From assembly GCA_036172245.1 (NCBI GenBank), contig JAYWIR010000003.1, positions 1,364,001 to 1,428,000 of the forward strand: a DNA stretch of 64,000 bases, read 5' to 3'. The position numbers were made by a program, and so were the translations under genes. The stretch comes from Raillietiella orientalis. Lineage: Eukaryota. Positions 9,960 to 63,583 of the stretch are shown in pieces (position 1 is the first letter of the stretch; each line of letters begins with the position of its first letter). The notes under the pieces are model-generated. The model searched no databases, had not been told where the DNA came from, and worked only from the letters and a program-made list of their open reading frames with translations.

Positions 9960-11050
9960 GGCAATGCTGGCAATTCTTAGTGCGGCCCCTAGGGCATTCT
10001 CTCCACTCAGGCATGGCGGGGTTTCGCAGGAGGCCACAGCGCACCAGCAGCACGGCGATCTGCTGGTGGCGAAGAGGGAGGATGGAGGCGTACCCAGGAA
10101 GGCCATCGCCTCCGGCCCTTCTCTGGGAATCCAGGAAGCCGTGTCTGCCGTTGCGATTCCCGGGCGAGATCTTTGGACGCGTCCTGTCGCTAAGTCGCGG
10201 GCTTTCTGGTCGAGAGAGCCCAGCCTCGCGCTGCAGGACGATCCTCAAGCTGAATTTCTTTCCGCTGATGTAGGAGGAACCGTGCAGCGTCTGGAACGTC
10301 TCTCGATGCTCCCTGGAAAGCAGGTCCACCGGTTGGTCGGGATCCTGATGCTCGCAGGCAAGAACCCACGGAGGCTTCGCGGCCGCAGCTTCTATCCTTT
10401 ATACGAGTCGTGAAGGGATTCCGCTTCCGCTAGAGGCATCATTTCGCTGTGTCCGTTCGGGAGGCACTTCGCGTTTCCAAGTTTGGGGGCACTGCCCACT
10501 TTCTAGGGACGCCGCTCTCTCTCTGCATCGCCGCTAATTGAAACTCGCTGGAGCAGGAGGACTCCCAGGAAGTGCTTCATCGCAACAACCGCTGGTCGTC
10601 TGAACGGTCCTCGTCCACTCTACACCTCTGAAAGGATAGCCTTTCCTTTGATTTTTCGCGCAGGACTCCTGCCATGCACTGAGCAGCTTGACCTGCGCCT
10701 TCAGGGTATCGGTCAATGTCACGGCTGAAAGAGAGGAACCCAAAGCTCAGTGATGCCTCTCTGCAGCTCGAACAGTGCCGTGAGGTGGGGATGGACCATG
10801 GGGGGTGCCTGCAGAATAGTTCGAATGCCAGGAGGAGCACCTCGCATGTTCGCGCGACGGACGTCGCGCAAACGTGCCTGGAAGAAACCGTCCCGGGAGG
10901 TGCCTGGAAGAAACTGGCGCTGCGCTCGGACTGAGGTGCACCACGTTTACGCGTTCCCGGGATTAGGAGGAATCCGTTCGGACCAAAGTCGCCGATCGAG
11001 TGGGTTCATCTGCGAAGACATTCAGAAGCTGAGGGGACACGGCCGCTTTT
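9960..11050. mobile_element. Degenerate LINE ORF2 relics (plus ~9960-10450; minus ~10480-11050)
   Basis: LLVAKREDGGV resembles the post-RT L..PK..GGL motif. Minus-strand LLLAFELFC...HCSSCREAS resembles zf-RVT. Confidence 0.35.
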
Positions 11051-12329: not shown

Positions 12330-13145
12330 GCTAGCTGCTGGAAACCGCCTCTCCTCTCGGTTGCAAGGGACCACATCAATGGCCCGACTGGGTCCAGTGC
12401 GCCCCCTGGCAAACTCGCCGTCCCTCCCTCATATTCCAACACTTTTAATGTCCCCCTTCAGCTGGAGACAGGCAACGCTGCTGCTCCTGCACTGGGACCC
12501 CCAGATCAATCAGGGCCTGGACCTCACCTCCGGGAGGAGTTGCGTCCCCGACCTGCCGTTCCAGGGACGGCTCGCGCCCGCACCCGCTTTTGGACTGTGG
12601 GGTTCCCCACAGGCGGTGGCGACTCCCGCGACCTACTGCGCCGGTGCTTCGCGCACGGCAGACCCTGGACCGGACCGGTGATGGCGCCGCGTGCTCGAGG
12701 CGCAGACGCAAAGAAAGGAGTCGCCGTGACGAAAGTCAAGGCCTAAATGAGGATGGTGACTCACCCGGAAGAGGAAGCGAAGGCGGAGATCGGCGACGCT
12801 TTTAGAAGGAAGGAAACGTCCGAAACCGATGGCTCCAGTCCTCACCCTTCCCTGTTTATTTAGTCACTGTTATTTCCGGTCCGGAAATAACAGTGACTCC
12901 CGGTCCGAGCATTTCCCGCTGTCTAAGAAGGAACAGGAAAAGCCAATGACCCCTTCCCCACCTTCCGGCTTTCTGTTTGTATTTTTGCTTATCATCCTCT
13001 TCCACCCGTCCCCCGCTTCTGAAAAGACCGATCCGCGTGTCGGTGCACCCTCTTCTTGAACTTGTTATTTTGTGGGGAGAATCGGCGGTTCCCAACGCGT
13101 TTGTCCATTTTTCGAACAAGCGCCCCGGGGCGTGACGGGTGAAGA
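12330..13145 (+). mobile_element. 5'-truncated family-A LINE
   Basis: WRQATLLLLHW and LLDCG motifs, T-rich tract, hairpin ACCGAT-ccgcgt-GTCGGT (13027-13044), terminus AACAAGCGCCCCGGGGCGTGACGGGTGAAG. Confidence 0.65.
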
Positions 13146-14130
13146 ATTTTCGCAACGCTTTCTGGCAGCAATGGCTTCGAGAAGTAGTGTTCCGGAGGTG
13201 TCGTCTCGTAAAGGGAGCAAGAACACGAGTGCCTGATGGAACCCCTATTCGTTGGTAGGGCCGACATTTCCGTCTTGGATCGTCCAGCAAAGCTGACCCA
13301 CCCAGACTGCCGGGCTTGCCGCTTGTCCTCAGCTTTGAACTCGGCGAGACGACGTACGTCCCACCCTCCCTGAAGGCAACGAGCCCGCAAGAAAGCGTGC
13401 CCGTTATCCGCTCGCCCGCCGAAGCCGTCGGGGAACCCGGGTGATAACGCCGAAGCCGTCGGGGATGAGGCCCACAGGGAATCTTCCGCGGAAACTCTCG
13501 AACCGAGTGTTTCGTTTCGTCCCAGCCCTCCAACTGCTGCACAGTGAAACTTCGCAGGAGATCGCCCTGCTGCTCTCGGGAGGATCATCTAGTCTCCCGG
13601 AAGACGCGACGCATTCGAAAGGGATCCCTGTGGTGTGGTGGCACGTCGGTGCCATAGCAGCAACGTCGATAAAAGGGCCAAAAGGCACTGAATCTGTTAG
13701 CCCAGCCGATGAAGCGGCAGATAAACTAAGAGAAGGATTGCAGAAACCTGATAAAGGAGCGGAAAAAACAGCACCAGGAGCCATTGAACTTCTTCAATGT
13801 TCCTGAAGATCCATTCTCGGGGAACGTCTTGCAGGAAGTGAAGGAAGAAAAGCCAATAATACAAATAGATAAAGGATGAGATTGGTGCTGAAGAAGACCG
13901 CCAAAATCTGGAATCTCTAGAGAAAGAAAAAAAAAATTCGGAAAAAGTGGTCAAGATATATCGTGGAGAGACACGAAAGAGACGTGAAGTACGGCAAGGA
14001 AAAAGAAAATAGTGGCAGACCTCTGTCCCCGGTCAGCACTGAAAGAAGCAAGGAGAGGTTAATAAATTGTGATGACACTCAGCCACAAAAAGCTCCCATA
14101 GGAGCCATGCCCGTAAAAAGCTAGAAAGTA
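13146..14130 (+). pseudogene. Possible decayed LINE ORF1 (RRM-like part, broken Cys/His knuckles, charged tail)
   Basis: Frameshifted EPLFVGRADISVLDRP..RLPGLPLVLSFE, Cys/His-rich 13530-13640 and an A-rich K/E-coding stretch. Same order as ORF1 at 60.9-62.5 kb. Weak. Confidence 0.25.
13417..13465 (+). mobile_element. 13-bp LINE 3'-terminus micro-insertion with 18-bp target-site duplication
   Basis: Perfect direct repeat CGCCGAAGCCGTCGGGGA (13417-13434 and 13448-13465) flanks ACCCGGGTGATAA (13435-13447). This matches family-A termini such as GACCGGGTGATAAA at 43448-43461 (minus). Confidence 0.75.
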
Positions 14131-19721: not shown

Positions 19722-20430
19722 GTACCCAGCGTTCTGGCAACCCTTTCCCCCCTCAAGTGGCAGGAGTCGGTGATTCTTCTGTTGCAGTGGGGCCTCCCGT
19801 GCAACGCCCGCCGACACCATTGGACTCAGGGGAGTGTCAACCCGAACTGCAAGTGCAGCGAGAGGGAGTCCCTCCCGCACCTGTTCATGGATTGCATTGT
19901 CCTCCTACCCCTGTGGAGACGCTTTGCCGCGTCCCTGCGGCTCCCCGAGGACAACCCGAGAAACCTCCTGAAGCGCCTCTTCCAGCGCGACGCGCTTCCG
20001 CCGGCCGCACCCCTAGCAGCACTTTTCTGCCCATGCGGCGGGACCGTGGCTGCATGGAGCAACTCCAGAGGAGGCCAGGACGACAGGGAGGCCATCCACT
20101 TTGCCGTCCTCTCCATGAGGATGGCTTCAAGATGGCTTCATCTGGAAACCTTTAAACAGGAAGTTGCCGGCATCCTTACGCCGTCCAGAATCTGGTGATC
20201 CCTTCCCGAACCCTCCCAGTTTTTTTTGTGTATCTATTTTTTTGTTTTTGTTTTTTTGTCTGCCTTCCCCCCGTCAAATGCCGAGGCGAACCTCACCGGC
20301 CTGCGCGCCGGTTCTCACCAGATTCCTTTAAGTATACTCATGACGTGGCAGGACCAAGCGTCCTGCTACTGACCGTCCTACTATGTTTTTTTTATATATA
20401 AATAAATGTTCCGGTGCAACCGAGTGTCAA
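19722..20430 (+). mobile_element. 5'-truncated family-A LINE (zf-RVT, structured 3'UTR)
   Basis: PLKWQESVILLLQWGLPCNARRHHW..NCKCSERESLPHLFMDC..MASRWLHL. 3'UTR hairpins; terminus AATAAA-tgt-TCCGG-tgcaa-CCGAG-TGTCAA. Degraded TSD ACCCATCATCG (19711-19721) / ACTCATCATCG (20430-20440). Confidence 0.9.
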
Positions 20431-37699: not shown

Positions 37700-39302
37700 C
37701 TTTGGCTGGAACAGTGCTACCCTCCCCATAAAGTGGCAGGAGTCGGTGATTCTTCTGTTGCAGTGGGGCCTCCCGTGCAACGCCCGCCGACACCATTGGA
37801 CCCAGGGCAGTGTCAACCCGAACTGCGGCAAGTGCAGCGAGAGGGAGTCCCTCCCGCACCTGTTTATGGATTGCATTGTCCTCCTACCCCTGTGGAGACG
37901 CTTTGCCGCGTCCCTGCGCCTCCCCGAGGACAACCCGAGAAACCTCCTGAAGCGCCTCTTCCAGCACGACGCGCTTCCGCCGGCCGCACCCCTAGCAGCA
38001 CTTTTCTGCCCATGCGGCGGGACCGTGGCTGCATGGAGCAACTCCAGAGGAGGCCAGGACGACAGGGAGGCCATCCACTTTGCCGTCCTCTCCATGAGGA
38101 TGGCTTCAAGATGGCTTCATCTGGAAACCTTTAAACAGGAAGTTGCCGGCATCCTTACGCCGTCCAGAATCTGGTGATCCCTTCCCGAACCCTCCCAGTT
38201 TTTTTTGTGTATCTATTTTTTTGTTTTTGTTTTTTTGTCTGTCTTCCCCCCGTCAAATGCCGAGGCGAACCTCACCGGCCTGCGCGCCGATTCTCGCGAG
38301 GTTCCTTTTTGTATATACATGACTGATTTCAGAAGTAAGAGCCGATCGGATATAATGAAACAAATGAGAGGAACAAAAATGCAATGATGGTTCGAAACAC
38401 ACGCATCCCCATCTCACTTTCTACGTAGTCACCATTTTTTTCCCAAACACTTTTGATACCGTGAAAGGGGAGCTCCGGGGAACCCTCTGCATGAAATTCC
38501 GCAGTCTGGGGGTTCAGCCAGTTCAGCAGCACCGCAGTCTTCAACTCTTCCCCTTCCTAGCATCCTTGAGCCACTTTGTGAGGTGCAGGAAGACTTGGTA
38601 GCCACTGGGGGAGAGGTCAGGACTGTAAGATCAAAAAGTTCCCATTCGAATTTCTGAGTCGTCTGGACAGCACAGTGTGGGCGCGCGCCGTCGTGAAGGA
38701 GAAGAACGATTCCTGGTCTCAGCATTCTGAACGGCACGCCGCAGTGTTGAAAGTGTTTCTACACAGTAGACTTGCGCACAGTAGATGGCTGTTCCAGGCT
38801 CCGTAAAGTCCACCAAAAGCACACACACCCTTTCGGTCCCACACACATGCCGTCCTCACATTCCAGACAATTCGAAAATCCGAATGGAAACTTTTTGATC
38901 TTACCGTTCCGACCTCGTACCCAGTGACCACCACGTCTTCCTGCACCTCAAGAAGTGGATCAAGGATGCGAGAGGGAAGGGGAGGAGTTGAAAACTGCAG
39001 TGCTGCTGAACTGGCTGAACCCCCAGACGGCGGAATTTCATGCAGAGGATTCCCCAGAGCTCCCCTTTCACGGTATCAAAAGTGTTTGAAAAAGAATGGT
39101 GACCACGTGGAAAAGTGACATGGGGATGCGTGTGTTTCGAACCACCAATACAGTTTTGTTTCTCTCATTCATTCTTTCTTTGTATCCGCCGTTAATTTTG
39201 AAATGCGTCTCGTATGTGTAACGTGGCAGGACCAGGCGTCCTGTCGCTGACCTGTATGTTTATTTTATGTAAATAAACGTCTCGGAGCAACCAAGTGTGA
39301 GA
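37700..39302 (+). mobile_element. 5'-truncated family-A LINE interrupted in its 3'UTR by a mariner derivative
   Basis: 37731-38295 is nearly identical to 19755-20316. The remaining 3'UTR (GTGGCAGGAC hairpin; AATAAA-cgt-CTCGG-agcaa-CCAAG-TG) resumes at 39215-39302. Confidence 0.88.
38318..39212 (-). mobile_element. Non-autonomous mariner (Tc1/mariner) derivative with ~350-bp inverted arms
   Basis: Transposase remnants WDRKGV/LLVDF, LLHDGARPH (HDNARPH), FEWELFD, KNGDYVE. Arms 38318-38667 and 38862-39212 are inverted copies of the transposase 3' end. TA at 38316-17 and 39213-14. Confidence 0.9.
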
Positions 39303-43447: not shown

Positions 43448-45030
43448 TTTATCACCCGGTCATGCAGAGACGTTTATTATCAAAATAAGAAACATCACGT
43501 GTAGGACCATCGACCATATATCGTCCGAAAGTATTCGGAGCCTGCCGAGTAACCAGCACGCAGACCGGCTAGTTTCGCCTCAGCAGCGGAGGGGCAAACA
43601 AAAATAAAAATCAATGATAAAAAATAATTCTGGGGGCACGGGAAGGGATCACTGTCCGCTGAAGGAAGTCCTCTGCATCCTTTCCAGGATGCTGGCAAGT
43701 TCCATCCGAATGCGGACAGCTAGCTTGACAGTCCAGGCACGGACCAGCTTGCTACCGTCCGCATGAAGCGCAGGGCGGAGCAGATGGCGTCCCTGTCGCG
43801 CTGTCCTCCTCCTCTCACGTAGCTCCAGGCCGCCACAACCCCGCGTAGGCAGCAGCAAAAAACTGCTGAGGATGCACCAGGCGAAAGGGCATCCCTCACG
43901 AAGAGGCGCTTCATCACGTCCCTGGGATTGTTTGTAGGTGCACCAAGGTCCGTTGCGTAACGAAACCACAGGGGCCGGACGGCAACACATTCCACAAGCA
44001 GGTGCCGTTCCCCGCACCTGCAACAGTTGGGCTTCACAGCCCCCGTGTCCACTGAGACAGGAGGAAGACCCCAATGCAACAACAGAAGTGCCGACTCCTG
44101 CCGCCGCAGACGGACTTTGTTCTTCAGCGCTGAGGGACCACTCGAGGTCTTCCTGTGAGATTCCCAACGGCTCTCAATAGTCCCTTCGGTGGGGCACTTC
44201 GAATCGCAGCGTCCGTGAGCTGGCCCGTGGTCCAACCACCCAATTCCTTCGTCCGAAGACTCATTTCTCAACTGACCTCCCATTTGTCCAGCTGGTTCCT
44301 GCCCAGGTGCTCCCTGAGGGCTAGGGAGGTTGCTTGTTCCCACGCACACGTGGTGGGCTGCACGATGACGTCCTGCAGCGAGTGATTCTTGCAGAAGGAG
44401 TGCAGCAGTCGCTGCCGCATCACCGTGCTCGCTTCGTTGTTCTTGGCCCACACGAGAAGGGTTTCCTGCAACCAGATACTACCGTTCGCGGATCCGCAGA
44501 AGATCCAGTTGTTGGTCCTGGTCAGCTTGGCCACTCTCCGGAGCTGCATTCCGCAGCGGGACACGTTGCGTCTGCACAGCCGTTCCAGGAACGAAGACAG
44601 TCCCGCGTAGCCGGTGGCTCGCTTGACCAGTTATCGTGCGGGTTCGCAACAGTTCGTGCTCCAAAACTTCGCCACTAGGGCAGGCGTCCTCCACTGGAGC
44701 TACCACTCCAGGCGTTCCAGTGTCAGGAAGCCGAGGCCTCCATCGAGACCGAAGCGCACAAGTCCTTCAGGCGGATTCGGGACCTCCCTGTTGCCCACAG
44801 GGAGATTCTCAGGAGGTCCCTTGTCCGGCTTTTAATGCTACTCGGTGAGGGGCACACAAAAAAGGGGGGGAGGAAGAGGGAGATCACGAACGTGTTTTAC
44901 ACCGAGGTCCGTTTCAGTAGGAAAAACTTGCCATCTTGGAACAGGTCGATCGCCGACTCTGCCTTCTGGGGCAGCTGGACCACGCCTCCGCCGGAGAATG
45001 GTCCCCCATCTAGTCTCCTGAGGCAAAATC
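43448..45030 (-). mobile_element. 5'-truncated family-A LINE (post-RT region to 3' end)
   Basis: GGLGFLTLERLEW, RQESALLLLHWGLP..NCCRCGERHLLVEC..RDAICSALRFMRT. 3'UTR stems 43542-43586. Terminus ...CCGGG-TGATAAA. Confidence 0.88.
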
Positions 45031-49065: not shown

Positions 49066-50069
49066 AATTCTCACCCGGATAAACATATTATGGGAACTGT
49101 GGTTGGACCAATGGCCAAGCACGCACAATTTAAGGGAAGCCTGCCGGGTTACCGGTTCGCAGACCATCGCGGTCCACCACGGCAGCAGAGATAGTAGGGG
49201 AAGGGGGGTCAAACAAAAAAGAAAAAAAAGAAAATAAAAGTAAGAATAAATATACTCTGAGGGAAACGAGAAGGGATCACTGTCTGCTGCCGGCAGTTCT
49301 GTCCATCCTGCCGGCAAGGTCTAGTGGATATTGCTGTCCAAGTGTCCAAAGCGTTGCTATCCTATGAAAAGGACGGCGAAGTGGGTGGCATCCCCATCTC
49401 TGGGTCCTCCTCTTGCTTGCTCCGTGCAGCGACGACCCCGCGTAGGCAGCACAGGGCTGCTAACGAGGCCTCTGGACGAAGGGCCTTGCGAACGAAGAGG
49501 GGTTTCAAAGCGTCCCTGGAGTTGCCTCCAAGGGCTCCCAGGGCTGCAGCAAAGCGTTTCCAGAGGGGCCGGAGGGCAACACAGTCCACTAGCAGGTGCG
49601 AACGGATTTATGCTCCCCGCACCTGACGACAGTTCGGGTCCACACACACCTTCGTCCAGTGATGATGGCGGGCGTTGCACGGGAGATCCCAGTGCAGCAC
49701 CAACAGCGCTGACTGCTGCGTCTTAAGGGGGAGGATGCGGGTGTCCATGAGCACCGGAGGTCACTTCAGGTGTTCCGACGGAACATCTTGTAGCTCGTTA
49801 GCCCCAGCGCAAGAGTCCATGGGGCGGTGTACTCGGGGTCTCAGCGTCGGTGAGCTGGCCCGTGGAAGACGGAAGATTCCACACACTTTTTCCGGGATCC
49901 TCCAGGATCTCTAGGAGCGTGAATAGGTTGTTGCGCATGAACAGGAACCGGCGCACCTGTTCCGTGCATTGCTCCTGGACCCTCTCCCACGTGAGAACGG
50001 TTTCCTGTAACCAGGCACCACCCTTCGCGGAGTAGCAGGAGGTTTTCCTTAGGAGGTCTTTCGTCCGCT
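49066..50069 (-). mobile_element. 5'-truncated family-A LINE with 14-bp TSD
   Basis: DCVALRPLWKRFAAAL..AALCCLRGVVAA. 3'UTR stem CTGCCG..CGGCAG (49141-49185). Ends ATCCGGGTGAGAATT. TSD GAGAAGTTCGGATC at 49052-49065 and 50070-50083. Confidence 0.88.
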
Positions 50070-50372
50070 GAGAAGTTCGGATCGTGAGTATGGTCGACTT
50101 GCTTCCCGATCAAAGCAGGGACGGCGCGTTCCTCGAAGATCACCGGACCGGTGTGGCAGGTCGAATCTTGCCATCAGCAGGTGGATGTGGACCATCATCT
50201 CTGCAGTGCCGTGAAAAAGGATGAATTTCAGGAAAAAAAGCGAAACTTGAGATCGCTCCGAACTTTGGAAGCGGCTCGCAGAAATGCTCCTGAGGGAAGA
50301 GGACGTGCTCATCCCATTTTTTTTAATATTTTTTTGTAATAAAGGCCCCTGCGTGACCAAGTGAAAATAAAG

Positions 50373-56889: not shown

Positions 56890-59800
56890 CTAGGTATTCT
56901 TGCATTCGTCTTCTCCAATCATTGCACTTATGTCTCCTGGGATTATCACTGAGATCCACTACACTTAAGGAACTGTGCTTCGTTTATGCTTAGACGTTGT
57001 CCTCAATCCTTCTCAGGATATGTCGGTAGTTCCAGGCCTGTACTCTTCCACAGTTTCTTATGCCGATCTCCTTCTGGGTAAGCCCTTTCAGGATTTCCAT
57101 TGGAGATTCCATTGGAGATATGGTCTTGATCCTCCACCACCGCACATGGATGGCGGTGATGAAGAGAGCGATGTTCATCCTTACCATGGGATCTAAAAAT
57201 TCCCATGGTCGATGTTGTGGGCAGCCCGATTACCCTTCTGAGGGTGTTCCACTCTTGTTGCATAGTGGGGCAGTGAAGACGTGGAGTCTTGTATTCTTGT
57301 CTCCACATGCTGAGCAGGCCTCATCTTCTCTTGTTCCCGTGAATAGCTTCATGGCTGTCCCGCACAGGATTCCTCCATGATAAAACATCAGGAAGTTATC
57401 CTGTGTGTCCGGTGGCAATTCACTCCTCCGGAGCGTCGTTCCGATCGCCAACAGGTTTATCCTAGCACTCCCGTGGCCATGGGCGTCTTCTTAGAGGCCA
57501 CTGCTGTCTTTGACCTCTTCGACTAGTGGTCGGCATAGGTTTTTCTTTGTTACCCTGGACCACACGAAGTTGTATTTTTTCCACGCTTCGCGAGTCCTGT
57601 GGGTGAATCTTCCAGCTATCCTGTCAATGTATCGGAGTACTTGGGAGTGGTGGAGGTACTCTCCTCGTCTCCATGCTTGAGCTACTTGCAAGGTTACCCT
57701 GGACCGCTCGTGGATCCAGTTCTCCGTATCCGGAGGTACCGGGAGCATTCACGGGATCACCAGGATGGATTCCTCCTGCCAGAGTTCCTTTCTCCCTGGT
57801 ATGATCTTCAGCTGGCGCTTGTGTACCAGCTGTTGCTTTCTTCTCCAGGTTGGGTCGATGGTCCCCCATTTACCCACTCGGACTAGAAGCTCAGTCATCA
57901 GTCCTCTCGAGTTATTTATCAACAACGATTTAGCCCTGTGCGCTGCATACGACCAGTCTTCCCAGTTTTTCGACATGTCCAGGAGTTGTCGCACGTCCAT
58001 GGTATCCGCAGCGTGTGCAAGCGACTTCATCCTGGTACCGCCTTCCTACTTAGGACACATTGGTTTGAGGCGGGATCTCGGTCGATAGCCTCCCCACCTC
58101 TCTTCTGGTGTCTTGATGCATTCTGCAGAAGGCCGCTCTGAAGAGTATCTCTGGAAGGAATACTCCGTTCCAAAGGTTGGCCCTCCGCTTCATGCTAAAG
58201 TCCAAACGGGTATACTTTGCTCCTTCTTGAGCTTTCCCCAAGATTTCCTTCCACAATAGTTGGGACGACGAATTGTCGCCAATGTGGACACCCAAGTACT
58301 TGGTGTTGTCCATTGTTCGGAATCCTTCCTCCATTAGTATGGAGAGATCCAGGATCCCCACGGCAAAAGTTGGCTTCTCTGGGCATTGATTTTCAAGCCC
58401 AATCCTTCTTCCATAAGCTCCAGCACATCCAGAAACGTACGCTGATCTCTCTCCCCTTTCAGGAAGAAGAGAAGATCATCCGCGTAAGCCAGATGGGTGA
58501 GCCATTGATTGCCGACAGTGATTCCAGTCACTTCTCTCGATGAATGAAGAGAGGGCCTCCATGTATATGACGAACAGCATCGGACTGAGAGCGTCTCCTT
58601 GGCGGACTCCTCGTTCCATCCGGATGGCTGCTGTCTCTTCCCCATTAATCTTTATCCGAAAGCGTTGCTCTTCAAGTATCATCTTCACAAAGTTGCTGAA
58701 TTGTTCCAGGAGTCTTTCTAGAATCTTCAGCAGCATCCCATGGTCCATCGTATCGAAAGCTTTCTCCATGTCAGTGAAACCCAGTATCAAGTTCTCGCCG
58801 ATATATCGGCTGAGACCAATGGTAGCCTGGGTACACTTGACATTGTCCGACATGTGGCGTACGGTCACTGAGCATGTCTGGATGGGAGAGATGAGCTGTG
58901 GCATGACCTTGCCTAATCTTTCACCCGGGTAAGCCGGGGTTTTTATTATTAAAAAACATTTTTACAATTAGTAATTGCTGTCGTCTGTATTTGTGTTCCT
59001 GTCAGAACACATTGTTCTTATTTTCTTATGCACTTGTCCTTTCCGACTTGTATGCCGGTAAGGCCTTCTCCACTGGCGAAGGGGATGAGAAAAAGAGGAA
59101 AAAAAAAAATTTTTAACGCTTGGGGGACAATGTTTATGGGGAGGGGAGGGAAGGGAAGGGATCACGGTTCGCCGAGGGGAGGCCTCTGCATCCTGTTCTG
59201 GAACAGGTGCTGGCAGGCACTTCTTCGCATCGCAAATTTTACTTAGCCGGCGCCAACGGGAAGCCTTCTCCATGGAGATGACTGCCCAGTGGATGGCATT
59301 CCGACTACTGCGGCCTCTTATTGACGCGTTCCACTTGTCCAATATTCCCCGTATGCAGCAGAGAACTGCAGCACACGCGGCACCTGGCAGGGAGTTCCTC
59401 ATCAAGAGGCAATAGATAGGTTAGCCCTTGGCTAACCTTGCCTAATAGGTTAGCCCAGATCTTTGCTAACCACTTGGCACCGCTGTCCAGGATTGAGATT
59501 GGCCTCCATTGGGTAACCTTAGTCAGGTCACCTCCTTTCGGTAACAATCTCATCCTGCTCTAGTAGAAGGATGCAGGTAGTCGTCCTTCTTGTTGGATGC
59601 AGAGCGTCAGCTGATGGAACAAACGTCGGTAGGCATGCAAGTACCGCTGATAGTGAGAGATAGGGACACTATCAGGGCGCGCCGCTACATCCTTGCAAAG
59701 TTCCACAAACGTAGCTTTCACTTCTTCAGAGATTTCCTCTTCAAGCATCTTCCGATGGTTTTCACACGTTCGTCGTTCCAGATGTCGCAGAAAAATTCCT

Positions 59801-60915: not shown

Positions 60916-62518
60916 TTATTTTTTAGCCTTTCGGAGTTTCTTCTGCCGAGGAGACCGCTGCTGCCTCTGCGCAGAAGGTTTCTCGTTACCAGCATCGCTT
61001 TTCGTTTCGGTGAAGTCAATGAGTTCTTCCTCCTCCGTCGGGTTTCCTGCTTCCACGATCACTTTGCGTGGGAGCCTCTCCAGGCCCACTGTCTCACAGA
61101 AGTTCGACTTGATGTTGAGAAGCTTGTCTTGCAGCTTGTTCCATCCACCACATTATTTATGTCCTCCTGAACCTTGGAGATGCGTTGCAGGAGTTTCCCA
61201 TGCTCCTCTCCTCTGGTTCCCGGTTGGACCTCTCCATTCAGCTTCGCCACTTTCGCGTTGATTTGCAGGGTTTCCTGAGTTTCCGGGACAGGCTCGACTG
61301 TTTCCATTTTCTCTTCTGCTTTTTCCTCGGGCTTGTCGAAGACCTGCTATTCCCCAGCGAGCATCCTCCTCTTCCCCTTTTTCCTCACTTCCATGAAGCC
61401 GTCCTCCGATATTGGGACGACCTCCCTTACCCTTTCCACCTTCACGGTGATTTTTTGCGGCTGTTCCGCCTCCCTCTGGGGTTTCTCGTACGAGTGAGAG
61501 CCCGCGCATGGTACGCCAGTTGGCGTATTCCGGGCAGCTCCACCTCGCGTGGCCCGTTGCCTTACAGAAGGCACACACTTCAGGTTGGTTGCAAGACCGG
61601 ATCTGGTGTTCCTGCTTGCCACAGCGGAAGCACCGAGATCCTGGACAAGCACTGACCCTGTGGCCAAAGTGCTTGCAACCCGTGCGAAATGTAGGCTGCT
61701 GCCTATATCGTATGGAGACTTCCTGGGAATCCCCATCGATATGGGCTAGTCCTGGAATCTTTGCATCTTCAAATAACCTGATCTTGGCGATGGCATTGCC
61801 GGAGAACACCTTTCCGGAGTAGTTCCGGAATTCCACATCTATAACTTTCCCGCACTTGGTGAGGAAACTCCACACCGCTTGTTTATTTGTTGTCACGCTG
61901 ACTCCTCCAAGAAACACCGTCGTATACGGCATTTCGCCAATTCCGCGGACCATCCTCCCTTGTATATTCATGCCCCTTTCGATCAGGACCTCGATGAGGG
62001 GTTCACTGTCCGTGTAGACTGTGAACCCCGTCGTGCTCGGTATGATCGCTTGTACGTGGTCAAAGTCTACATTCTCTTTATAGAGGGCCAAATACACATC
62101 TTTGATATTGTTTATCCTGATGAGTCCTGTTTTGAATGTGATCGGCTTCACATTTGGACCGATCCTCACGATCGGCTCATCCACATTCTCGATTTTGCCG
62201 ACTTTCGGCTTTCCAAATGTTCGTGGTGGAGCGTTGGAATTTCCGGTTGCCACCGCCGCGTAAGAAAATGGCCGCGCCGTTGCAGCCGAACAACATGGCG
62301 TCGCGGCCTTCGAGCTCCCCGCTACTTGGAAGGTCGTAGGCTGCGATGCCAGCGCCGTCGCGTAGGCGACACGTGGCGACGCTGCACATTCTCCGGACGC
62401 TACCTCCATCGGCTGGGGTGACGTCGGCGTGTCCTCCAACTCCCCTTGCATCCTTGCGGAGGACTGTCGCCGTGGCGGAATGCAAGTCCTCCACTGTGGT
62501 GTCGCTGCTGCTGGTCAT
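60916..62518 (-). pseudogene. LINE ORF1, Gag-like nucleic-acid-binding protein (RRM-like region, CCHC knuckles), frameshifted
   Basis: CKHFGHRVSAC, CFRCGKQEHQIRSC and CAFCKATGHARWSC in ORF 61153-62451. Continues via frameshifts to ...KKLRKAKK* at ~60916. Confidence 0.88.
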
Positions 62519-63453: not shown

Positions 63454-63583
63454 CCCCGCGGCTGCTCTTCAGGCAGGTCCGGTGTTGTGCGGCCGTTAGT
63501 GGGGCCTCGTACCACGTATTTGTAGAATTTATCAATAAACGCCCCGGGCGTACTCGGGTGGCAACCCCGCGGCTGCTCTTCAG
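63454..63583 (+). mobile_element. 92-bp LINE 3'-terminus insertion with 19-bp TSD
   Basis: Perfect repeat CCCCGCGGCTGCTCTTCAG (63454-63472 and 63565-63583) flanks a 92-bp insert ending AATAAA-cgc-CCCGGG-cgta-CTCGGG-TGGCAA. Confidence 0.85.

What the first reader, a model, noticed from the sequence alone, without database searches (positions are those of the whole stretch)
13417..13465. 13-nucleotide retrotransposition footprint: LINE terminus alone between 18-bp TSDs
Seen: CGCCGAAGCCGTCGGGGA is perfectly duplicated around ACCCGGGTGATAA. That insert is the 3' arm of the terminal hairpin plus tail (compare GACCGGGTGATAAA at 43448-43461 minus, ACCCGGGTGAAAG at 58918 minus). The insert stops at the hairpin loop. 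Inference: TPRT started at the RNA end, stalled or was resolved at the stem-loop, and still produced a full TSD. Repeat annotation would miss such events, so they could be a hidden source of short duplications.
Basis: partly seen in the sequence, partly recalled or inferred. Interest (0 to 1): 0.8.

Follow-up and report, generated by a model that had tools for sequence, protein, structure and literature searches.

The report
Tiny LINE tail-tip insertion
Thirteen bases from the very end of a jumping gene (a LINE retrotransposon) were pasted into that element's favourite landing spot, and the same genome holds over a dozen similar scars made of only the element's 25-base end hairpin, which suggests its copying often stops at one fixed early point.

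Summary
Confirmed. An exact 18-bp duplication (13417-13434, 13448-13465) flanks 13 nt that match the tailless 3' end of a 5.65-kb L1/Tx1-like LINE. Three host paralogs lack exactly these 31 bp and four carry a long LINE end at the same base. The site is the family's specific target: antisense, in the PxGFG codons of LINE ORF2 (119 junctions, control 0).

The proposed enrichment test passes: 7 of 99 other termini have a TSD within 45 nt, against 13 of 3000 random anchors. The usual ultra-short copy, however, is the whole hairpin (22-28 nt, TSD 11-17 bp, off-target; 14 found, 12 clear), almost only from one lineage. The loop-break 13-mer is a singleton and the only on-target case. I estimate 15-20 per genome, so this is a minor source of duplications.

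TPRT origin ~0.88; the cause of the stop is open. The scan noted this target before in this genome, and tail-tip copies in three other genomes (unchecked). Very short TPRT products are known; my searches found no hairpin-length class in print.

The parts
13417..13434 (+). 5' copy of the 18-bp target-site duplication; its first 10 bp are the family's canonical target (CVCCRAANYC, the antisense of the host codons GFG)
13435..13447 (+). 13-nt retrocopy: last loop base, 3' hairpin arm and tailless end (TGRYAA) of the donor LINE, antisense to the host ORF2
13448..13465 (+). 3' copy of the TSD, starting at the first base after the LINE terminus, as in 119 on-target junctions
13145..13581 (-). host: decayed, frameshifted fragment of an L1/Tx1-like ORF2 endonuclease-RT linker (donor ORF2 aa 268-401, 27-43% identity)
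63454..63583 (+). second, independent donor-lineage copy in the window: 92-nt 5'-truncated 3' end (63473-63564) between exact 19-bp TSDs (63454-63472, 63565-63583), off-target

Best explanation
The 13 nt are an extremely 5'-truncated product of target-primed reverse transcription (TPRT) by a site-specific L1/Tx1-like LINE. Shown from sequence: the insert ends exactly at the family terminus; it sits at the family's target base; an 18-bp duplication starts at the next base; empty host paralogs lack the 31 bp; and a sister class of 22-28-nt hairpin-only inserts exists. Inferred steps: (1) ORF2p holds the 3' hairpin and nicks the bottom strand at the target. (2) cDNA synthesis starts at the base of the tail, so no poly(A) is copied, and gives at most about 25 nt. 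It stops at the hairpin/AATAAA boundary, either because RT stalls and falls off at the A/U-rich tract (about 0.45 of this reading), or because the template was already a ~25-nt ORF2p-protected RNA fragment (about 0.35), or for another reason (about 0.2). (3) The short cDNA is joined to a top strand cut 13-19 bp downstream. Here the target's last bases resemble the hairpin's G-rich 5' arm and loop, so the join fell inside the loop and left 13 nt with an 18-bp TSD.
For: Empty paralogs L002, L003, L008 lack exactly 31 nt; L004, L005, L007, L006 have LINE ends at the same base. 55 of 70 distinct linker sites were uninterrupted, 13 were 3' junctions and 2 were 5' junctions (read by eye). 27 of 30 termini among the 30 best donor hits are followed by the target. 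119 junctions, control 0. Donor: 5650-5654 nt between 10-bp TSDs in L060, L062, L063, L066; ORF2 has Exo_endo_phos + RVT_1 and ORF1 has zf-CCHC. Short TSD next to the terminus: 8 of 100 including the window, vs 13 of 3000. All 15 ultra-short events begin their TSD with C-N-C after a pyrimidine-rich run, like the target. TSDs of truncated copies run 9-19 bp, plus one of 33. Drosophila R1 likewise gives less precise, about 14-bp TSDs (up to 17) and microhomology junctions outside its precise full-length class (PMC2718515, passages).
Against: No near-identical empty allele of this exact host copy was found (best paralogs 71-80%), and no sequencing runs were listed, so polymorphism and assembly were not checked against reads. 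The 18-bp TSD differs from the 10 bp of full-length on-target copies. This is the only on-target ultra-short event and the only clear loop break. Hairpin folds are not significant against shuffles and covariation was not testable. The homology that would place the join in the loop is weak. Nothing here separates stalling from a pre-shortened RNA.
Confidence: 0.85

Rival explanations
1. One reading: RT stalled inside the stem-loop, after copying only the 3' arm, because it could not unwind the stem; a +18 top-strand cut gave the TSD. This is a variant of the best explanation, and its weight is counted inside the 0.85.
For: The break falls at the last loop base. L187 lacks just the 5' arm and loop within a longer copy, so the hairpin can disturb copying. 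L148/L149 may be a second loop break, without a TSD.
Against: The other 6 ultra-short hairpin copies among the first 100 termini extend to the hairpin base (22-27 nt). Only 1 of 24 purine-preceded matches is a loop break with a clear TSD.
Confidence: 0.3
2. Secondary DNA rearrangement: a longer element first inserted with the normal 10-bp TSD. Replication slippage or microhomology-mediated template switching (5' TSD to 3' TSD, 8 more bases, then back to the terminus through the G run) later removed the body and lengthened the duplication.
For: The first 10 bp are the canonical TSD. A G-run microhomology exists at the second switch point. Tandem and recombined copies are common in these nests.
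Against: It needs two switches. Hairpin-only inserts and a 92-nt copy with a 19-bp TSD show that TPRT alone makes such structures.
Confidence: 0.08
3. Templated insertion at a double-strand break, copied from a genomic LINE end (DNA repair, no RT).
For: The 3' arm is an 8-bp palindrome and donor ends number in the hundreds.
Against: All 15 events end at the exact terminus with the duplication starting at the next base, at endonuclease-like C-N-C sites. Repair copying has no reason to keep this register. Caveat: my patterns required the terminus.
Confidence: 0.04
4. The 13 nt are native or chance sequence in a plain 31-bp tandem duplication.
For: Pairwise BLAST of L004-L007 ran co-linearly through the spacer, which first misled me. 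A few 13-mer matches are chance (control 3).
Against: Those paralogs switch to a LINE 3' UTR upstream of the spacer. Intact hosts have no such 13 nt.
Confidence: 0.02

Closest known systems
Severely 5'-truncated L1-mediated insertions: poly(A/T)-only insertion in NF1 (PMC3219598, passages) and short mRNA pseudogenes found by TSDscan (PMC2831318, abstract and first part of Results)
   Same: Only the extreme 3' end of the RNA is inserted, with a TSD of about 15 bp. Such copies escape homology-based annotation. Pre-truncated RNA templates were proposed there too.
   Different: Those carry a poly(A) tract and are about 120 to 300 nt. Here there is no poly(A), the inserts are 13-28 nt, and lengths peak at the hairpin boundary.
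R1 (AP-endonuclease, 28S rDNA) 5' junctions in Drosophila (PMC2718515, passages)
   Same: Site-specific APE-type LINE. Precise full-length junctions versus less precise, about 14-bp TSDs with microhomology in truncated copies. Off-target copies occur.
   Different: The target here is the ORF2 linker of other LINEs and of the element itself, in antisense. I saw no 13-28-nt class in the passages read.
Target-specific Tx1-clade LINEs that insert in transposons: Tx1 in Tx1D, Tx1-Mar in Mariner-N4_AMi, Tx1-8_Crp and Tx1-4_AMi in LTR elements (PMC4494074, passages)
   Same: Two-ORF APE-RT architecture, a fixed target inside another mobile element, tandem re-insertion sandwiching the TSD.
   Different: The target is a coding motif of non-LTR elements. 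Clade membership is not established here (best homologs 30-34% identical, no tree).
Stringent-type LINEs whose ORF2 binds a 3' stem-loop (zebrafish LINEs; PMC4176376, abstract)
   Same: 3'-terminal stem-loop with a conserved stem and a family-variable loop.
   Different: Binding is untested here. As I recall, those elements are L2 clade and end in short repeats.
Zepp nested LINE clusters of Coccomyxa (PMC3446292, passages)
   Same: Clusters of nested LINEs. The donor's own ORF2 carries a perfect target, so it can nest in itself.
   Different: Insertion here is antisense and hits many sister families. The organism and the relation to centromeres were not examined.

Membership tests
TPRT (non-LTR) insertion | TSD flanking the insert, starting at the element's 3' end | tested here: met
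   18 bp exact; enrichment over random anchors
TPRT (non-LTR) insertion | Insert is the 3' terminus of an RT-encoding element, truncated at 5' | tested here: met
   13 of 13 bases match L004-type ends; donor ORF2 domains
TPRT (non-LTR) insertion | Empty site with one copy of the target | tested here: met
   Paralogs only: 3 of 7, 55 of 70 sites; no orthologous allele available
TPRT (non-LTR) insertion | Poly(A) or simple-repeat tail | tested here: not met
   Insert and donors end in TGRYAA directly on the target. The donor family is tailless, so this lowers only 'canonical L1-type copy'.
L1 group LINE (L1/Tx1), donor | ORF1 with zinc knuckles; ORF2 with APE endonuclease then RT | tested here: met
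   PF00098 in ORF1; PF03372 and PF00078 in a 1215-codon ORF2 frame
Tx1 clade, donor | RT phylogeny groups with Tx1L/Keno/Kibi | not tested
   No tree built; best hits 30-34% identical, including fish and alligator 'TX1' proteins and L1-like proteins
Tx1 clade, donor | Target-sequence preference | tested here: met
   27 of 30; 119 vs 0. Copies are not all independent (segmental repeats).
Stringent LINE with ORF2-bound 3' stem-loop | Conserved stem-loop at the 3' end | tested here: inconclusive
   Stem predicted in 5 of 6 folds, z not significant; loops vary; no covariation test because the 3' arm was fixed by the search
Stringent LINE with ORF2-bound 3' stem-loop | ORF2p binds the stem-loop and needs it | not testable with these tools
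   Needs binding or retrotransposition assays
SINE | Own promoter head, and copies made from earlier SINE copies | tested here: not met
   Inserts are 13-28 nt of LINE terminus only, each with unrelated flanks

The most novel reading that the evidence does not exclude
One LINE lineage produces a discrete class of hairpin-only retrocopies (about 25 nt, no tail) because TPRT has a fixed early checkpoint at the hairpin/poly(A)-signal boundary, or because ORF2p integrates the small RNA fragment it protects. The outcome depends on the target: long copies at the specific site, hairpin-only scars at relaxed C-rich sites. Such scars would be an in vivo record of TPRT initiation and, given the scan's unchecked notes on three other genomes, possibly a general unannotated class.
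Probability: 0.4. Interest if true: 0.7.

Novelty: new variant of a known kind. Interest (0 to 1): 0.5.

Why it matters
Extreme 5' truncation is known. What is not expected is a sharp length peak equal to the RNA hairpin: 6 of 7 other events of 13-127 nt fall at 22-27 nt (P about 5e-5 if uniform), and it is largely confined to one lineage (11 of 208 vs 1 of 209, Fisher P 0.003). That makes a question about LINE biology testable: does truncation come from RT stalling or from pre-shortened RNA? One published survey of insertion junctions took only insertions of 50 bp or more (PMC2912911, passage), so such events fall outside it. As a source of genomic duplication the effect is small.

Tried and rejected
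1) After I read the spacer as native host sequence; the multiple alignment reversed this.
2) A search for short inserts between exact target starts gave 8 matches vs 6 control; only the window had the motif. A broader on-target pattern gave 1, the window.
3) Loop-break class: 24 purine-preceded matches, 20 newly fetched, none with a clear TSD except the window (L170 among them is hairpin-only). L200 has a weak 9-10-bp resemblance by eye that the script did not call. Pyrimidine-preceded loop breaks were examined only within the first 100 termini.
4) Sequencing runs: none was listed, so no reads were laid.
5) The hairpin's folding energy is not significant in 50-nt windows.
6) Scaling 7 of 100 to all 555 termini gives 16-77. 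I rejected this as biased upward, because the first 100 lie on the seven largest contigs. The targeted patterns caught 5 of the 6 hairpin-only events in that set and 13 genome-wide, which points to about 16.
7) piRNA origin of the 25-nt class was considered; the fragments begin with C, not U (1U bias recalled), so it is not favoured.
8) Non-templated 5' bases: the apparent extras in L224-L226 dissolve if the TSD is extended through mismatches (CpG-type in L224), so they are not used as evidence.
9) Only 15 of the first 100 termini had a callable TSD within 200 nt. In the 60 on-target loci most had no TSD within 6.2 kb, probably because of nesting.
10) Paper searches for a hairpin-length class gave 1 unrelated paper, 0, 0 and general L1 papers. 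The library lacks most subscription papers, and I read no supplements.

Full report
Observation. The structure is as described: 18 bp, 13 nt, 18 bp at 13417-13465. It is the longest spaced exact repeat in the window and was not matched in 100 simulations (longest 15). The window is G000:C3:1364001-1428000 of a 210-Mb, 491-contig eukaryote assembly and holds many decayed L1/Tx1-like ORF2 fragments on both strands.

Host and empty site. The repeat interrupts a frameshifted ORF2 endonuclease-RT linker on the minus strand (13581-13145). A DNA search gave 7 paralogs at 71-80% identity. Pairwise alignment suggested that the spacer was native, but the multiple alignment showed two classes. L002, L003 and L008 are intact and lack exactly 31 nt. 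L004, L005, L007 (near-identical to one another) and L006 follow the host only up to the same base and then switch to a LINE 3' UTR ending in AATAAA, a GC hairpin and TGRYAA. A tblastn of the linker over all loci in hand gave 70 distinct sites: 55 uninterrupted, 13 3' junctions and 2 5' junctions, read by eye. No near-identical empty allele of this host copy was found, and no read sets were listed.

Donor. The L004 3' end has 1372 candidates, 40 of them scored. Among the 30 best loci, 27 of 30 detected termini are followed by the target; the other 3 are one repeated off-target event. These copies are not all independent. Four full-length copies measure 5650-5654 nt between 10-bp TSDs (20 stretches examined). 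ORF2 has endonuclease and RT domains and ORF1 a zinc knuckle. Best database relatives are 30-34% identical, so L1 versus Tx1 is open. The target is the antisense of the codons GFG in the ORF2 linker, and the donor's own ORF2 carries it. Genome-wide the 13-mer occurs 555 times (control 3), and 119 of these are followed by CRCCRAA (control 0). The rest include a second large lineage with another loop (209 vs 208 matches), several copies of which share a different flank.

I held DNA for all of the first 100 listed termini (contigs C1-C7). Eight, including the window, have a duplication within 45 nt of the terminus, against 13 of 3000 random anchors. One of the eight (L250) is a fold-back product. 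Insert lengths with a callable TSD within 200 nt were 13, 22, 23, 23, 26, 26, 27, 62, 128, 128, 132, 143, 152, 162 and 198 nt (15 of 100; control 9 of 1427). Without the window, 6 of the 7 events under 128 nt fall at 22-27 nt (P about 5e-5 against uniform). Patterns for an intact hairpin without AATAAA gave 13 matches, control 0: three already known and ten newly fetched. Of the ten, 8 have a TSD of 11-17 bp with at most 1 mismatch, L220 has 15 bp with 2 mismatches, and L228 is weak. These patterns can only catch breakpoints at the hairpin base (about 24-28 nt), so the peak rests on the unselected 100. With L156 the total is 14 hairpin-only events, each with different flanks, and I estimate about 16 with an intact motif. 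They come almost only from the target-specific lineage (11 of 208 vs 1 of 209, P 0.003; first 100: 6 of 27 vs 1 of 58, P 0.004). All 15 events, window included, start their TSD with C-N-C after a pyrimidine-rich run, a relaxed form of the target. The four with 3 kb of context show no LINE protein homology nearby.

What is special about this copy. It is the only ultra-short insert at the canonical target and the only clear loop break among 24 purine-preceded matches. Its TSD is 18 bp, against 10 bp for full-length copies. Truncated copies have 9-19 bp (one of 33 bp, L205), including a 92-nt copy with a 19-bp TSD at 63454-63583 in this window. The TSD's last bases resemble the G-rich 5' arm and loop of donors of the L004 type (null fraction 0.02; 0.10 and 0.30 for two other types). 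This is suggestive only.

Mechanism. TPRT origin is well supported (about 0.88). The steps are inferred from junction anatomy and from established LINE biology. ORF2p binds the 3' stem-loop (shown for zebrafish LINEs; PMC4176376, abstract). Priming occurs at the base of the tail, and a cDNA of at most about 25 nt is made. It is then joined to the top strand, with or without microhomology, as described for R1 and R2, where truncated R1 copies have less precise TSDs of about 14 bp (PMC2718515, passages). The fixed stop could be RT stalling at the A/U-rich tract or a pre-shortened, protected RNA; pre-truncated templates were proposed for short human pseudogenes (PMC2831318, abstract and first part of Results). 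Selection against long off-target copies could raise the share of tiny ones, but would not by itself make a peak at the hairpin boundary or a difference between lineages. Rivals are a later template-switch rearrangement (0.08), DNA-repair copying (0.04) and a native duplication (0.02).

Relation to what is known. Insertions of only the extreme 3' end are known: a poly(T) stretch of about 120 bp in NF1, read as a severely truncated element (PMC3219598, passages). Junction surveys may start at 50 bp (PMC2912911, passages). Tx1-clade elements that target other transposons are known (PMC4494074, passages), as are nested Zepp clusters (PMC3446292, passages). My searches (listings and abstract starts) showed no hairpin-length class and no LINE that targets ORF2 codons of other LINEs. 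The library is incomplete and I read no supplements. The scan itself noted the PxGFG target with a 10-bp TSD in this genome, after I had reached that reading, and tail-tip copies in three other genomes; I did not check the latter.

Verdict. A real event, correctly identified in kind. The loop-stall detail is not the rule, and the genomic impact is small. The hairpin-only class is the more interesting result. New variant of a known kind; interest 0.5.

Noticed in passing
window 63454-63583 (+): 92-nt 5'-truncated copy of the donor lineage between exact 19-bp TSDs, at an off-target C-rich site.
   Followed up: yes
window 58918-59447 (-): 517-nt LINE 3' fragment with a 12-bp TSD, inserted in the RT region of an older LINE whose ORF1 (three zinc knuckles by eye) lies at 61156-62514 (-).
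   Followed up: partly
window 12862-12898: Perfect 18-bp inverted repeat with a 1-nt centre; origin not examined.
   Followed up: no
window 19748-20344 and 37724-38323: 600-bp LINE 3' fragments 97% identical to each other, the youngest repeat pair in the window.
   Followed up: no
window 10874-10914: 15-bp exact direct repeat around an 11-nt spacer that does not match the terminus motif.
   Followed up: no
window 49068-50100 (-): Probable LINE 3' fragment of about 1 kb with a 14-bp TSD.
   Followed up: partly
L093, L107, L108, L126, L128 (5' junctions): Full-length copies whose two TSD copies differ at the Gly wobble base. This could be target sequence carried on the RNA 5' end, or exchange between copies.
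   Followed up: no
L250 (G000:C6:4949137-4949509): Short insert whose 5' arm is replaced by the exact complement of the terminus: a fold-back or snap-back product with rearranged TSD pieces.
   Followed up: partly
L187; L119: Longer copies that lack only the hairpin's 5' arm (and loop), as if RT or replication skipped the stem.
   Followed up: no
L148/L149 (G000:C1:3440540, 3453270): 16 nt of terminus (loop onward) in non-family flanks with no TSD, present twice through a segmental repeat; possible loop break with target deletion.
   Followed up: partly
L151, L182, L235, L153, L205: The second lineage has short copies clustered at 115-143 nt (two at exactly 128), possibly its own truncation hot spot; L205 has a 33-bp TSD.
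   Followed up: no
L140, L144, L147, L160, L164, L167, L190 and others: The second lineage repeatedly lands before an ACAACCGACC-like flank in other LINEs, a second specific target.
   Followed up: no
G000:C84:120637-128363: Donor 3' ends repeated at a period of about 3.65 kb with the same off-target flank: a tandem segmental array.
   Followed up: no
G000 contigs C72-C130 and contig ends: On-target junctions concentrate in small contigs and near contig ends, while hairpin-only copies lie mostly inside large contigs.
   Followed up: partly
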